Assembly: GCF_055900595.2 (NCBI RefSeq)
Contig: NZ_CM148325.1
Reading direction: 5' to 3' (one strand)
Length of the DNA: 64,000 nt
Part shown: positions 29,961-33,589 of the stretch, in pieces
Layout: each line of letters starts with the position of its first letter
How positions within the stretch are numbered: position 1 is the stretch's first letter
Notes under the pieces: model-generated
Seen by the model: the letters and a program-made list of their open reading frames with translations, nothing else
What the model was told of the DNA's origin: nothing
Database searches by the model: none
Translations under genes and position numbers: made by a program

Positions 29961-30755
29961 TCACTGAGCTGTAATCAATGTACAGCGCTGTACCGGGCGA
30001 TGGGTAATACCGGTCACAACCGGTAACCCCAGAGACAATGCAACTGTTTTTAACGCAATATACTGGCCGGATGTATCACCCCGGGCAGCCTGAAAACACC
30101 TTTCCACCCGGCATTGTCCGTCAGCACTTATCACCCGCCATGTCTGTTGCAATAAATCCACCCGTTGCGAACATTCTTCATCAACCGTGGCACTGACCCG
30201 TGGATGGCAAATGCTCGTCTGGCTGAGCAGCAACAGGCATCGCATTGTTGCTCCTCCATGTTGTTCCCGCAACCAGCGTAATACCACCGGTGGTGCTGGA
30301 CTGGCCGTGTGATTACGTTCAGTAATACGCTCGTGCACCTGTCGGTAAAAGGAAGTACAGAATGCATGAATCTGTTGTCCGTTGATGTTTCCTTCTGCCG
30401 AATGGAGTGTGAAGTGGACGGCCAGCAGACGCGGCCAGTGATCCACCGCCTGCTGAATAAAACGCCGGATTTCCACCGGCTCTGAAAGTACGGTTTCGGT
30501 TATTTGCACGATTTGATCCCCTTGAATGTTGCTGAACCGGTGTCGGTACGCAGGAAAGCACGCCGAGACCGGTACGATGCCTGTTACAGCGAAGAACGAG
30601 GAATGACAGACGGGGGCAGCAGGTCGCCAGCACCAGGGACAGGGCTGATTTCCACAATACCAACGCTGGTATTTTGCACATTGCCAGCGTACCGGCATTA
30701 CAACACGTTTCATGCTGCTGCCCCTCGTGATGCCTCGATTCGTTGCTGCATCCAC
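29961..30755 (-). CDS. Divergent YagK/YfjJ (inovirus Gp2-like) family paralog; true start uncertain (overlaps AlpA-like ORF)
   Basis: ...PVEIRRFIQQAVDHWPRLLAVHFTLH...VVLRWLREQHGGATMRCLLLL... parallels ...LIRVDLRFP...LRYFWCREFGKEKGRKHYHVILLL... of the 31944-32675 paralog. Confidence 0.4.
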   Translation of the reverse strand: MDAATNRGITRGSSMKRVVMPVRWQCAKYQRWYCGNQPCPWCWRPAAPVCHSSFFAVTGIVPVSACFPAYRHRFSNIQGDQIVQITETVLSEPVEIRRFIQQAVDHWPRLLAVHFTLHSAEGNINGQQIHAFCTSFYRQVHERITERNHTASPAPPVVLRWLREQHGGATMRCLLLLSQTSICHPRVSATVDEECSQRVDLLQQTWRVISADGQCRVERCFQAARGDTSGQYIALKTVALSLGLPVVTGITHRPVQRCTLITAQ

Positions 30756-30946
30756 TGCTCCACTTCACTTTTGTACCAGCGGCTGCTGCGCCCCAGTTTG
30801 ATGGGTTTAGGGAAATGGCCTTCACTGATCAGCTTGTAAAACCATTTGTCGGTCATACCAGTGAAGCTGGTGATGTAGTTCATGTCGATCAGGGGATCGT
30901 CGGCACGCAGCAATACGCTGTCGTGACCTGTCATTGAGGTCAACAT
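30710..30946 (-). CDS. AlpA-family phage/island transcriptional regulator (MerR-like HTH)
   Basis: ...LIDMNYITSFTGMTDKWFYKLISEGHFPKPIKLGRSSRWYKSEVEQWMQQR. Confidence 0.7.
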   Translation of the reverse strand: MLTSMTGHDSVLLRADDPLIDMNYITSFTGMTDKWFYKLISEGHFPKPIKLGRSSRWYKSEVEQWMQQRIEASRGAAA

Positions 30947-31014
30947 GGTCAGAATGTCCTCTGTGAGATTTATGAATGTTGGGCAAATGCGGGTGAATCT
31001 GCTGAGCTGAGCTT

Positions 31015-31617
31015 TCAGAGCTGGCCTGCTACGGGATACCAGGGATTACCGGCGAGGTAACGGGCTTCCGGATCGCGCACACCACGACGATCGCGGGCGA
31101 AATCACTGAACGCCCATATCAGCTCTTTGAGTCTCTCTTCGCAGTCCGGTGAACAACTGTCCAGCACCACATCCCGGGTTATCTGTTTCTGGTACGGTGC
31201 TGCTTCACCCGGTGCCGCGAAGCCCAGTACGTTGCTCCAGGCATCCAGTATCAACCGGTCCAGCTCAGGGCCGTCGAAATATTCCTGTCTGACGCACAGC
31301 ACCACGTGGTATTCCGGTTTTTAAGGATGACGGGTCAGGAGCCAGCAGAGGTCGCGTCCGGGGGTTGCATTCATCAGCGCACTGACGGTTTCGATAAAGG
31401 CCATACCGAACCAGGTTTTTCTGTCGCTGAAGATGTTGCCATGTTCCCCCGGCAGACGAAGCAGGATCCGCCGTATCCTGGAGCCGGACTGCTCGCGCAA
31501 CACACGGTTGAGAACGCCGATGATTTTGTTCTGATAAGATGGCCAGAAGGGCGCCATGCTATAGTCGAAATAAGGGATAGCATTCATAAGATATGTTCCG
31601 TTATACGCAGCCCACAA
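31015..31617 (-). pseudogene. YagK/YfjJ-family paralog with in-frame TAA (31321-31323) and degraded 5' end
   Basis: Two same-frame ORFs (31321-31617 and 31015-31305) separated by one stop; the region upstream of the current start retains homology to the 5' end of the 31944-32675 paralog. Confidence 0.6.
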
Positions 31618-31943
31618 CGCGTCCTGCCCGTGGATGCGCTGACGTGTTATGGCTTGCGTATGGGGTTGATGGAATAAGTGAAAAACCGCGGCAGAACGGG
31701 AAGATCAGGTAACCGACAAGGGACAGAACACCGGATGCAGGTTCAGAATGAATGATCTCCGTTGACTTCGGTTCACATCATTAAGCAGGACAGTAAGGTT
31801 TTACCGACGGAGTGTTTCCAGGAGCGAAAGCAGAGAAAAATACCGTTGCATGACTTCAGGACGACTTTTTCAGAAAACGAGCTAAGGGCGTCAGCCAACG
31901 TCCTGTAGCATAAGCTCAGGCACCGGATGTCGTTTTACAGGGC

Positions 31944-32675
31944 TCACCTGCCATCCAGCAGACGCCCCGGCCCACGACTGCAACCATAATTACGTTGCCC
32001 GGAACCGTCATGCTGCTTCGTCTCATATTTCACGAGATAACTGGCTCTGTTCCGGGCTTTCTGCAGCGCTTCCACATCACCACGCTTGATCCAGAGAACA
32101 GCGGCTTCACCCGGCTTTTTTTCTGAAGCCTTCCTGGTATCAGAACATCCACCCGACAAAGGCGTGTCATCGGAAGAAGGGCGAGCATCAGACGATGCTG
32201 GTTTACGGGAAGGCGTCCACCTGGAAAAATGGACCAGGCCATCGCCTTGCCAGGCCTCAAGATGCAGGGCGCTGCACCATGCCTCCAGGATCATCGTCGC
32301 CAGCGAAGATGGTTCGCTGAAATCCCCTGGCGAGCACCAGGTATCTTTGTTGAGCAGCAATATCACGTGATAATGTTTCCTGCCTTTTTCCTTGCCAAAC
32401 TCCCGACACCAGAAATAACGCAGAGTGGTTGCACGCACACGCTTGTTGGCACGTCGTTTTTTCCGCTGGTAAGCCTGGATTTTGGCTTTCAGGGATTCGA
32501 AAAAACGAGAAATCACCGCTGAATCCGGATCGGGATCCATGATGGTGACAGGCATATACTCAGGGAAACGTAAATCCACCCGGATTAACGAGACGGCACG
32601 GTGCTGCGACAGGGCACTGTCGAGAAGGCTGTCAAAACGGGATAACCAGTAAGCATTGTGTATTGGTTGATTCAT
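31944..32675 (-). CDS. YagK/YfjJ (inovirus Gp2-like) family protein
   Basis: 243 aa; ...AVSLIRVDLRFPEYMP...TTLRYFWCREFGKEKGRKHYHVILLLNKD... Confidence 0.7.
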   Translation of the reverse strand: MNQPIHNAYWLSRFDSLLDSALSQHRAVSLIRVDLRFPEYMPVTIMDPDPDSAVISRFFESLKAKIQAYQRKKRRANKRVRATTLRYFWCREFGKEKGRKHYHVILLLNKDTWCSPGDFSEPSSLATMILEAWCSALHLEAWQGDGLVHFSRWTPSRKPASSDARPSSDDTPLSGGCSDTRKASEKKPGEAAVLWIKRGDVEALQKARNRASYLVKYETKQHDGSGQRNYGCSRGPGRLLDGR

Positions 32676-33589
32676 GATGAGAGATCTCCGTTGATTTGGA
32701 TTGACTTCACATCATTAATCACCGCGGTAAAACTTTACGGCATCATGTCATTAAGCAATGCTACAACTCTCTGATTAAGAGTGATTGAAACGGAACAAAC
32801 CATCCCGGAACGAAAAGATAATCCTGCACACAGCAGCAAAACACGCAACAACAGCATGAATGGATTTAAAAACGACATGGACGACGAGAAAAGCCTGAAG
32901 GGAAAAGGATCCACAGAACATTCGAACAAAACACCAGAAACGCAACCAGAACGCTTCCTGGCAATGCAAATCAACAACAACGCCAAAACCTACAGCTTAA
33001 TCACACAACTCAATCACGAATGCGAATGACACGTTTAAAACCTGTTTACAGATAACGCCGTAACACGATCATCCCCATCACCATCAGAATCGATTTTCTC
33101 ATCCCGAAAATGTTACGTTTCACTACGCACCATAAAAACGGTTAACCATCGATAACGTAAACCTTATCTGAATCAAAAACACCAAAACCGTTCATCACAC
33201 TTTCGCAATGCAAGAAGAAACCTCATGACAAAAAGAATGACCTTACACGGAAAAGAAAACGTCAGGAATCGTTAATGCCTCAATCTGATTGTTATCAAAA
33301 CATCCAGAAAGTCGTTTAACAGAATCGTCGTAAGCACATCGAAAAGAACGTCAGATCACCTCAGGAAAGTTCGGGTTGATTTAGCGTAAAGATACTTTTC
33401 TCAGCTTAACGTCGAAACACAAACCAAAAACCACAAACAACCAAAGCTCAGGAAAGGTTAAACGTCACATCAGTAAAATCGAATAGCAGATTGATTGCTT
33501 AAACAGGAAGGATTGTTTTACAGCAGCATTAAACTGATTTAGTTAACGTAAAATCAGAACTGACAGGTTTACTAACTTGGATGTGTATC

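What the first reader, a model, noticed from the sequence alone, without database searches (positions are those of the whole stretch)
29961..32760. Three tandem YagK/YfjJ (inovirus Gp2-like) paralogs at different stages of decay
Paralog 31944-32675 looks intact. Paralog 31015-31617 has one in-frame TAA (31321-31323) and has lost its original start; the region 31618-31760 still aligns to the 5' end of the intact copy (shared gatctccgttga...ttcacatcattaa). Paralog 29961-30755 is divergent and Cys/Trp-rich at its N-terminus. Tandem amplification followed by decay suggests relaxed selection on this family within the element.
Basis: seen in the sequence. Interest (0 to 1): 0.3.

Follow-up and report, generated by a model that had tools for sequence, protein, structure and literature searches.

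The report
Three ancient Rep-like paralogs, not decaying duplicates
The three genes are real but very distant relatives of a viral-type DNA-nicking (Rep) protein, kept together with the regulator AlpA as a conserved module of E. coli genomic islands; the only clear damage to the three genes is one private stop codon, so this is ordinary island backbone, not a decaying gene amplification.

Summary
The window is E. coli, in a degraded CP4-57-like island next to cadC. On the minus strand it carries ORF1 (31944-32675), ORF2 (31015-31587), alpA (30710-30946) and ORF3 (29961-30509).

ORF1 is a clear YagK/YfjJ protein with an intact HUH motif (H101-Y-H103) and a Tyr motif (Y213LVKY217ETK). ORF2 and ORF3 miss Pfam thresholds. 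Profile-profile comparison and bridging homologs still place both in the same superfamily (98.4% and 95.8%). Both lack HUH and the catalytic Tyr.

They are not recent tandem copies:
- There is no DNA similarity between them, and protein identity is about 25% or less.
- alpA sits between ORF2 and ORF3.
- The same gene set recurs in Citrobacter, Pseudocitrobacter and a Klebsiella plasmid.
- dN/dS is 0.31, 0.21 and 0.33, and all three genes are intact in the other E. coli loci where each was present (ORF3's position was not covered in one).

The TAA at 31321-31323 is one private base change (GAA to TAA). None of 1,714 homologous places in complete genomes has it.

ORF2 has not lost its start. What it shares with ORF1 is a conserved non-coding leader. 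The Cys/Trp-rich "N-terminus" of ORF3 is a relic mini zinc-ribbon ORF, fused in frame by a lineage-specific deletion.

Function is untested. I infer a replication or mobilisation module with one active nickase and two inactive paralogs. Interest is low to moderate.

The parts
31944..32675 (-). ORF1, 243 aa. A YagK/YfjJ ('inovirus Gp2 family') HUH-type Rep-like protein with H101-Y-H103 and Y213-LVK-Y217-ETK. It carries an insert of ~45 aa (about residues 150-192) that is absent from homologs in other genera.
   Evidence: PF11726 E 3.6e-37 and PF23343 E 1.9e-10. PHROG replication-initiation families match. Motif conservation is seen in alignment A3. PGAP names it 'inovirus Gp2 family protein'. 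dN/dS is 0.31.
32676..32757 (-). ORF1 leader. It holds two TTAATGAYRTGA boxes (32707-32718 and 32743-32754), the near-palindrome CGGTAAAGTTTTACCG, and TCAACGGAGATC (which contains the Shine-Dalgarno GGAG) 10 nt before the ATG.
   Evidence: It is nearly invariant in the 4 loci that carry this ORF1 type.
31750..31826 (-). Second copy of the leader, a conserved 77-nt non-coding block. It lies 162 nt upstream of the ORF2 start and has no start codon after its Shine-Dalgarno sequence.
   Evidence: It repeats the ORF1 leader, with 0 of 500 shuffles reaching the score. Mean pairwise distance across 7 loci is 0.05, against 0.15-0.44 between diverged loci for the spacer next to it and an ORF2 dS of 0.13-0.49. 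It occurs in 1,876 of 5,426 genomes and is never annotated.
31015..31587 (-). ORF2, 190 codons. A divergent YagK/YfjJ-superfamily paralog with a degenerate HUH (E92-Y-H94) and no motif-III Tyr. In this window it is interrupted at codon 89.
   Evidence: PGAP calls an intact CDS (WP_077248717.1) in near-identical strains. Homologs were found. The bridge protein P0316 hits PF11726 with E 1.4e-10. hhalign gives 98.4%. dN/dS is 0.21.
31321..31323 (-). Private nonsense codon TAA. Every other copy has GAA, coding the conserved Glu89. The change is plus-strand base 31323, A instead of C.
   Evidence: It is the only difference from strain GPEC389 (L001) over 3,401 nt; bit scores indicate a single mismatch in the other two top hits as well. 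The 66-mer around it has no exact match among 1,714 places in 1,378 genomes.
30710..30946 (-). alpA, 78 aa. An AlpA-family helix-turn-helix regulator that lies between ORF2 and ORF3.
   Evidence: PF05930 E 2e-10. dN/dS is 0.07.
30624..30713 (-). Relic mini zinc-ribbon ORF (MKRVVMPVRWQCAKYQRWYCGNQPCPWCWR). Its ATG overlaps the alpA stop codon (ATGA). Here the second Cys is replaced by Tyr (30669-30671), and the ORF is fused in frame to ORF3.
   Evidence: Zn_ribbon_11 proteins from Citrobacter and Klebsiella modules hit this spacer by tblastn, E 2e-4 to 4e-3 in a small database. Pfam itself gives no hit.
30510..30623 (-). Non-conserved spacer that is read in frame only in this lineage. A deletion of roughly 70 nt relative to other loci removed the mini-ORF's stop codon.
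   Evidence: Alignment of six loci shows variable length, indels and different reading frames.
29961..30509 (-). ORF3, 182 aa, with a GTG start preceded by AAGGGGA. It belongs to family UCP030791 (PF27752). It is a remote YagK/YfjJ relative with neither HUH (T88-M-R90) nor the catalytic Tyr.
   Evidence: PGAP CDS WP_001167455.1 is named 'hypothetical', 'YagK/YfjJ domain-containing' or 'UCP030791' in different records. PF27752 is the precomputed domain. hhalign gives 95.8% against the ORF1 family and 77.7% against the ORF2 family. The AlphaFold model has pLDDT 72 and an RRM-like fold. dN/dS is 0.33.

Best explanation
This is a conserved backbone module of CP4-57-like integrative islands of Enterobacteriaceae. 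It is not a decaying gene amplification.

It holds three anciently diverged members of the YagK/YfjJ (inovirus gpII-like, HUH Rep) superfamily together with the regulator AlpA. Only the first gene, ORF1, keeps the metal-binding HUH motif and the catalytic-tyrosine motif. ORF2 and ORF3 (family UCP030791) have lost both, yet they are kept under purifying selection, so they look like non-catalytic paralogs.

Shown: the homology, the motif states, the synteny, the selective constraint and the private nature of the stop codon.

Inferred mechanism, not tested. After AlpA-driven excision, ORF1 nicks a specific site. A candidate is the conserved leader with its TTAATGAYRTGA boxes. The nick would start rolling-circle replication or single-strand transfer of the island. 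ORF2 and ORF3 would act as DNA-binding accessory or regulatory subunits.

In this particular strain ORF2 carries a very recent GAA-to-TAA change, or a sequencing error. The neighbouring mini zinc-ribbon ORF is a relic fused to ORF3. Both fit an island that is degrading overall.
For: Family assignment:
- ORF1 hits PF11726 with E 3.6e-37 and PHROG replication-initiation families.
- ORF2 family versus ORF1 family: hhalign 98.4%, E 6e-15. The ORF2 ortholog P0316 passes the PF11726 threshold.
- ORF3 family versus ORF1 family: hhalign 95.8%, E 8e-9.
- A Klebsiella intermediate protein matches ORF3 at 1.5e-10 and ORF1 at 1.2e-5.

Motifs: HUH and Tyr are present in ORF1 and in the alternative first-slot gene ORF1b. 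Both are absent in ORF2 and ORF3.

Age and constraint:
- There is no DNA similarity among the three.
- dN/dS is 0.31, 0.21 and 0.33, and all are intact in 6 other loci.
- The module is present, at least in part, in 2,857 of 5,426 complete E. coli genomes.

Synteny: a subset of {AlpA, YagK, ORF2-like, UCP030791, Zn ribbon} recurs in Citrobacter, Pseudocitrobacter and a Klebsiella plasmid.

Stop codon: it is a single private base.

Context: the window's copy sits in a degraded island by cadC, with antirestriction, RadC, DUF932, GTPase and CbtA/YeeU genes. The same layout is seen in K-12 CP4-57, where alpA is followed by yfjI and yfjJ. Pseudomonas tmRNA islands also have IntY, AlpA, a Gp2-like protein and RadC as likely core functions (bioRxiv 10.1101/2024.08.29.610337).
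Against: - No member of this family has a tested activity. The literature search found no functional study of YfjJ or YagK.
- ORF2 and ORF3 of E. coli do not reach Pfam's own threshold for PF11726.
- The ORF2 structure model is unusable (pLDDT 48).
- The leader shows no hairpin or structure signal of the kind typical of Rep nick sites, and no sigma-70 promoter consensus.
- The island in this window has only an integrase fragment, so the module may be idle here.
- The dN/dS values come from only 7 loci and the simple Nei-Gojobori method.
Confidence: 0.78

Rival explanations
1. One reading: a recent tandem amplification of one YagK/YfjJ gene, with the copies now decaying under relaxed selection.
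For: All three are superfamily relatives on one strand. ORF2 has a stop codon in this window. Frameshifted variants of ORF1 and ORF2 exist in databases. The host island is full of pseudogenes.
Against: There is no DNA similarity between the copies, and protein identity is about 25% or less. alpA is interleaved between them. Each gene has orthologs in conserved synteny in other genera. dN/dS is 0.2-0.33, and all six other loci are intact. The stop codon is private to this sequence.
Confidence: 0.04
2. ORF2 and/or ORF3 are unrelated families, and their resemblance to YagK/YfjJ is chance or convergence on a common alpha/beta fold.
For: The E. coli sequences fail Pfam PF11726: ORF2 scores 11.8 bits and ORF3 gives no hit. 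With shallow alignments, ORF1 versus ORF3 gave only 12% and ORF2 versus ORF3 gave nothing. Fold hits are generic.
Against: With more diverse alignments hhalign gives 98.4% and 95.8%, collinear over 139-143 columns. Intermediate sequences link the families. Adjacency of these gene families is conserved across genera. NCBI annotators name the homologs Gp2-type.
Confidence: 0.08
3. The module is regulatory or defensive rather than replicative. For example, the inactive paralogs and AlpA could control island excision or interfere with phages or plasmids that use HUH Rep or relaxase proteins.
For: Two of the three proteins lack catalytic residues. AlpA is a transcription regulator. CP4-type islands carry many defence genes, such as AbpAB and RnlAB in CP4-57. 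The Pseudomonas islands with AlpA and a Gp2-like protein carry defence cargo.
Against: None of the three proteins matches PADLOC. ORF1 keeps a complete catalytic motif set under constraint.
Confidence: 0.1

Closest known systems
YagK/YfjJ family (Pfam PF11726, formerly Inovirus_Gp2), which includes E. coli K-12 YfjJ (CP4-57) and YagK (CP4-6)
   Same: ORF1 is a full-length member: 31% identical to YfjJ, above the Pfam threshold, and next to alpA in a CP4-type island as in K-12.
   Different: ORF1 carries an extra insert of ~45 aa. The island has two further, much more divergent paralogs (ORF2, ORF3) and lacks the yfjI (DUF3987) gene that sits between alpA and yfjJ in K-12.
HUH rolling-circle Rep proteins: inovirus gpII and REP_ORF2-G2P (PF23343), phiX174 gpA, SIRV1 ORF119
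   Different: The element has no virion genes and no demonstrated origin. ORF2 and ORF3 lack the catalytic residues. No activity has been tested.
UCP030791 (Pfam PF27752 / PIRSF030791), 'putative phage-derived protein'
   Same: ORF3 is a member according to the precomputed domain annotation and the PGAP name.
   Different: This work links the family to YagK/YfjJ by profile comparison and shows that it lacks HUH and the Tyr. I could not check whether Pfam already records that relationship.
AlpA plus Gp2-like core of tmRNA-site genomic islands in Pseudomonas (bioRxiv 10.1101/2024.08.29.610337)
   Same: An AlpA gene next to an inovirus Gp2-like gene, plus RadC and a tyrosine integrase, described as likely core element functions.
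   Different: Different genus and integration site. That paper does not describe the extra inactive paralogs.

Membership tests
YagK/YfjJ (Pfam PF11726) | ORF1 scores above the curated gathering threshold (25.8 bits) | tested here: met
   128.3 bits, E 3.6e-37, covering profile positions 2-170 of 170.
YagK/YfjJ (Pfam PF11726) | ORF2 scores above the gathering threshold | tested here: not met
   11.8 bits, E 0.23. Superfamily relationship is still supported: ortholog P0316 scores 41.8 bits and hhalign gives 98.4%.
YagK/YfjJ (Pfam PF11726) | ORF3 scores above the gathering threshold | tested here: not met
   No hit at E up to 10. The remote relationship rests on hhalign 95.8% and an intermediate Klebsiella protein.
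HUH endonuclease (Rep/relaxase) superfamily | HUH metal-binding motif (His-hydrophobic-His) | tested here: met
   ORF1 has H101-Y-H103, nearly invariant in its family. ORF2 has E92-Y-H94 and ORF3 has T88-M-R90, so the motif is not met in those two.
HUH endonuclease (Rep/relaxase) superfamily | Catalytic tyrosine motif (Y-x-x-K) on a C-terminal helix | tested here: met
   ORF1 has Y213-LVK-Y217-ETK, and its family shows YLAKxxTK. In ORF2 the aligned position is not Tyr, though that part of the alignment has low confidence. ORF3's Y150 is not aligned to the catalytic Tyr and is not conserved.
HUH endonuclease (Rep/relaxase) superfamily | RRM-like beta-alpha-beta-beta-alpha-beta nuclease fold | tested here: inconclusive
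HUH endonuclease (Rep/relaxase) superfamily | Site-specific single-strand DNA nicking with a covalent 5'-phosphotyrosine link | not testable with these tools
   This needs biochemistry.
UCP030791 (Pfam PF27752) | ORF3 matches the family model | tested here: met
   PF27752.1 is listed as the precomputed domain for ORF3's 99%-identical cluster and all listed homologs, and is named UCP030791. The model is absent from the local Pfam copy.
AlpA (Pfam PF05930) | Score above the gathering threshold (21 bits) | tested here: met
   40.8 bits, E 2e-10.
Zn_ribbon_11 (Pfam PF11682), for the Cys/Trp-rich segment | Match to the family model, with four Cys ligands | tested here: inconclusive
   Pfam gives no hit. 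Ribbon domains from related modules match the spacer by tblastn at 36-41% identity, E 2e-4 to 4e-3 in a tiny database. Other E. coli loci keep CxxC...CPxC, while this window has the second Cys changed to Tyr.
Recent tandem duplicates / pseudogene series | Detectable DNA similarity between copies, and relaxed constraint (dN/dS near 1, frequent disruption) | tested here: not met
   DNA local scores are at chance for ORF1-ORF3 and ORF2-ORF3 and marginal for ORF1-ORF2, where 2 of 100 shuffles reach the score. dN/dS is 0.21-0.33 and all six other loci are intact.

The most novel reading that the evidence does not exclude
The conserved set of one catalytically competent HUH-Tyr protein, two catalytically dead paralogs (ORF2 and UCP030791), AlpA and, ancestrally, a DUF7828 zinc-ribbon protein forms a multi-subunit nicking, replication or mobilisation machine for CP4-type islands. 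It would act on the conserved 77-nt leader with its TTAATGAYRTGA boxes. That would give these very common, supposedly immobile E. coli islands their own origin or oriT system.
Probability: 0.25. Interest if true: 0.55.

Novelty: new member of a known kind. Interest (0 to 1): 0.25.

Why it matters
CP4-57-like islands are present in most E. coli genomes and carry virulence, toxin-antitoxin and defence cargo. How they replicate or move after excision is still unclear.

Two points are useful here. Genes labelled 'hypothetical' or UCP030791 next to alpA turn out to be inactive relatives of the island's Rep-like nickase. A short unannotated leader is more conserved than the adjacent spacer and than ORF2's synonymous sites. 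Together they give concrete, testable candidates for the island's origin and accessory factors.

For the scan itself, the result is mainly a correction. This is ordinary, widespread island backbone carrying one private stop codon. It is not an unusual case of gene-family decay.

Tried and rejected
- Direct Pfam and NCBIfam scans of ORF2 and ORF3 found nothing significant. PHROGs and PADLOC also gave nothing for them.
- Pairwise BLASTP among the three gave only marginal local hits around the HUH region.
- hhalign with shallow, E. coli-only alignments was weak for ORF3 (12%) and empty for ORF2 versus ORF3. It became convincing only after distant members were added.
- The AlphaFold model of ORF2 was too poor to use (pLDDT 48).
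- The afdb50 fold library was unavailable.
- Foldseek of the ORF3 model against the PDB gave no significant hit, and against BFVD only weak Rep/NS1-type hits.
- No PDB sequence relatives were found.
- Rfam found nothing in 29000-34500.
- RNA or DNA folding of the alpA-ORF3 spacer and of both leaders showed no structure beyond shuffled controls.
- The sigma-70 promoter and terminator scan was at background level.
- I tested whether ORF2 once started at the leader. That is rejected, because the intervening DNA has frame-breaking indels and stop codons in several loci.
- A 'phage' record carrying a YagK homolog (OR844780.1) proved to be an unverified chromosomal fragment with IS66.
- The literature search found no functional work on YfjJ or YagK.
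Full report
**Where we are.** The region is E. coli chromosome. The 3.4 kb around the finding matches chromosomes of several E. coli strains at 99.3-100%. It lies in a degraded CP4-57-like island next to cadC. Around it are IS remnants, a frameshifted ProQ/FinO gene and a YeeP-like GTPase. Also present are DUF932, antirestriction, RadC, DUF987 and YeeU/CbtA genes, and an integrase fragment. K-12's CP4-57 has the related layout intA, yfjH, alpA, yfjI, yfjJ.

**Observation.** All features are on the minus strand.
- ORF1, 31944-32675, is intact. It hits YagK_YfjJ_C (PF11726) at 128 bits, E 3.6e-37, and REP_ORF2-G2P at E 1.9e-10.
- The second ORF has an in-frame TAA at 31321-31323.
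- The third long ORF, 29961-30755, exists.
- Between the second and third lies alpA (30710-30946, PF05930 E 2e-10). The three are therefore not strictly tandem.

PGAP annotation of near-identical strains gives the real gene models. ORF2 is 31015-31587 (190 aa, 'hypothetical protein', intact). ORF3 is 29961-30509 (182 aa, GTG start). ORF3 is named 'hypothetical', 'YagK/YfjJ domain-containing' or 'UCP030791 family' depending on the record.

**The stop codon.**
- Over 3,401 nt the window differs from strain GPEC389 at one base, 31323 (A versus C). On the coding strand this turns GAA (Glu89) into TAA.
- A 66-mer centred on it has no exact match in 1,714 homologous places in 1,378 complete genomes. 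The best matches are all one mismatch away.
- Glu89 is nearly invariant in the family and lies three codons before the YH remnant of the HUH motif.
- The window differs from its nearest relatives at about 1 base in 800 elsewhere. A real, very recent mutation is therefore plausible, but a sequencing error cannot be excluded.

**Are the three related?**

Directly, only weakly. BLASTP gives E 0.001 for ORF1-ORF2 and E 0.044 for ORF1-ORF3, both around the HUH region. ORF2-ORF3 gives nothing. Repaired ORF2 scores 11.8 bits on PF11726 and ORF3 gives no hit.

*ORF2.*
- It has only E. coli homologs in the word-indexed search.
- A full HMMER scan of 1.8 billion representatives with an ORF2 profile found two distant full-length relatives. 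They are P0316 from Pseudocitrobacter and P0321 from Citrobacter.
- P0316 passes the PF11726 threshold (41.8 bits, E 1.4e-10).
- With these added, hhalign of the ORF1 family against the ORF2 family gives 98.4% probability, E 6e-15, over 139 collinear columns.

*ORF3.*
- Its homologs all carry the new Pfam family PF27752, named UCP030791.
- With E. coli-only members, hhalign against the ORF1 family was weak (12%).
- After adding the UCP030791 genes from the Citrobacter and Pseudocitrobacter contigs it rose to 95.8%, E 8e-9, over 143 columns. Against the ORF2 family it gives 77.7%.
- tblastn of ORF3 also hits Klebsiella plasmid genes annotated 'inovirus-type Gp2 protein'. One of these matches ORF3 (1.5e-10), ORF1 (1.2e-5) and the ORF2-like P0316 (2.7e-4).
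- The structural evidence is therefore compatible with an HUH fold but not specific to it.

I conclude that the three are genuine but very remote paralogs.

**Catalytic motifs.**
- ORF1 has H101-Y-H103 and Y213-LVK-Y217-ETK. The family consensus is HYHV and YLAKxxTK.
- The alternative first-slot gene found in other islands (ORF1b, 188 aa) has HAH and YLAK.
- The ORF2 family has E/C/F-Y-H and no Tyr at the aligned motif-III position.
- The ORF3 family has neither motif.
- So there is one potentially active HUH-Tyr enzyme and two inactive-looking relatives.

**Not recent duplicates, not decaying.**
- The coding DNAs share no similarity. ORF1-ORF3 and ORF2-ORF3 are at chance, and ORF1-ORF2 is marginal, with 2 of 100 shuffles reaching its score.
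- In six other E. coli loci at 88-92% DNA identity, every one of these genes present in the fetched stretch is intact; ORF3's position was not covered in L008. Pairwise Nei-Gojobori dN/dS has these medians: ORF1 0.31, ORF1b 0.14, ORF2 0.21, alpA 0.07, ORF3 0.33.
- The module, or parts of it, occurs in 2,857 of 5,426 complete genomes, with a median of 2 copies.
- The same neighbourhood recurs outside E. coli:

| Source | Gene order |
|---|---|
| Citrobacter (L014) | Zn ribbon, AlpA, YagK, ORF2-like, UCP030791 |
| Pseudocitrobacter (L012) | AlpA, Rep-like, ORF2-like, UCP030791, DUF2913 |
| Klebsiella IncHI1B/FIB plasmid (L016) | YagK, AlpA, two Zn-ribbon genes, UCP030791-like, DUF2913 |

This is a conserved, old arrangement.

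**The 'lost start' and the shared strings.**
- The shared strings belong to a ~65-nt repeat, 31742-31806 versus 32671-32738. Its score is 26, against 6.8 +/- 1.1 in shuffles.
- In ORF1 this repeat is the leader that ends at the ATG. It contains the Shine-Dalgarno sequence, two TTAATGAYRTGA boxes and a 16-nt near-palindrome.
- The second copy lies 162 nt upstream of ORF2's conserved ATG.
- The DNA between that copy and the ATG has no similarity to ORF1 coding sequence. It carries indels that are not multiples of three, and stop codons, in several loci.
- ORF2 therefore keeps its start.
- The 77-nt leader block itself is notably conserved. Its mean pairwise distance is 0.05, against 0.15-0.44 between diverged loci in the adjacent spacer and an ORF2 dS of 0.13-0.49.
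- The leader is present in 1,876 genomes and is never annotated.
- It also marks the junction where the alternative ORF1b cassette replaces ORF1.
- It shows no single-strand structure signal and no consensus promoter.

**The Cys/Trp-rich 'N-terminus'.**
- Right after alpA, with an ATGA start/stop overlap, lies a mini-ORF: MKRVVMPVRWQCAK(C/Y)RRWYCGNQPCPWCWR.
- It is 30-37 aa long in four other loci. A 13-nt deletion destroys it in two loci.
- Zinc-ribbon domains (Zn_ribbon_11) of DUF7828 proteins from the Citrobacter and Klebsiella modules match it at 36-41% identity, E 2e-4 to 4e-3 in a tiny database. Pfam itself gives no hit.
- In this window's lineage the second Cys is Tyr. A deletion of about 70 nt also removed the stop codon and put the relic in frame with ORF3.
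- This is real decay, but of a different gene.

**Mechanism (inferred).** The evidence is family membership, motif retention, the AlpA partnership and the island context. AlpA activating intA and CP4-57 excision is from my own knowledge. On that basis I think ORF1 is most likely the island's nickase for rolling-circle replication or single-strand transfer after excision. ORF2 and ORF3 would be non-catalytic DNA-binding or regulatory partners, and the leader would be a candidate recognition site. None of this is tested. The literature search found no functional study of YfjJ or YagK. A preprint lists AlpA, a Gp2-like protein and RadC among the likely core functions of Pseudomonas tmRNA islands. 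A regulatory or anti-mobile-element role remains possible, although PADLOC has no match.

**Verdict.**
- The 'amplification then decay under relaxed selection' part is not supported.
- The feature is common, already-annotated island backbone.
- The modest new points are four: the assignment of the E. coli ORF2 'hypothetical protein' and UCP030791 to the YagK/YfjJ superfamily as inactive paralogs; the conserved leader; the zinc-ribbon relic; and the private nature of the stop codon.

Noticed in passing
window 31750-31826 and 32676-32757: A 77-nt non-coding leader is far more conserved than the adjacent spacer. It is present in 1,876 of 5,426 E. coli genomes and never annotated. It contains TTAATGAYRTGA boxes and a CGGTAAA..TTTACCG near-palindrome. 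It also marks the junction where alternative first-slot genes (ORF1 versus ORF1b) are swapped.
   Followed up: partly
window 30624-30713 (minus strand): A mini zinc-ribbon ORF is translationally coupled to alpA through an ATGA overlap. It resembles the Zn_ribbon_11 domain of DUF7828 proteins from related modules. It is degenerate here (Cys to Tyr) and fused in frame to ORF3 by a deletion. It is unannotated in most records.
   Followed up: yes
window 29435-29943 (plus strand): A ProQ/FinO-family gene converges on ORF3. It is annotated as frameshifted in strains near-identical here. Only the 100-aa ORF at 29641-29943 still hits PF04352 (E 4.9e-17). Some other islands have it intact.
   Followed up: partly
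window 29951-29991: A 17-nt inverted repeat with a 7-nt loop (ACAGCGCTGTTCACTGA / TCAATGTACAGCGCTGT) sits at the junction of the convergent ProQ-like gene and ORF3. It overlaps ORF3's last codons and could be a bidirectional terminator.
   Followed up: no
window 31944-32675, ORF1 residues ~150-192: A low-complexity insert of ~45 aa (FSRWTPSRKPASSDARPSSDD...) lies between conserved blocks. It is absent from Providencia, Brenneria and other homologs. Frameshifted 214-aa variants that end inside this insert are common in databases.
   Followed up: partly
L009-L011 (other E. coli islands), slot equivalent to window 31944-32675: In many islands the first gene is a different 188-aa HUH-Tyr protein (ORF1b, with HAH and YLAK). 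It falls below Pfam's threshold for PF11726, and its own upstream region is unrelated.
   Followed up: partly
window 34253-35476 (minus strand): A 407-aa ORF next to the module has no Pfam or PADLOC match. It is annotated 'hypothetical protein' in related strains.
   Followed up: partly
window 25063-26372: About 1.3 kb is present in the window but absent from strain GPEC389 (L001) at this position. Its right part is 93% identical to a stretch of strain B771 (L004) that overlaps a pseudogenised IS3-family transposase fragment, so it may be an IS-related insertion.
   Followed up: no
window 28371-28861: IS1 remnant with InsA/InsB-like ORFs. It is annotated as frameshifted with an internal stop in strains near-identical here. 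This is part of the general decay of the island.
   Followed up: no
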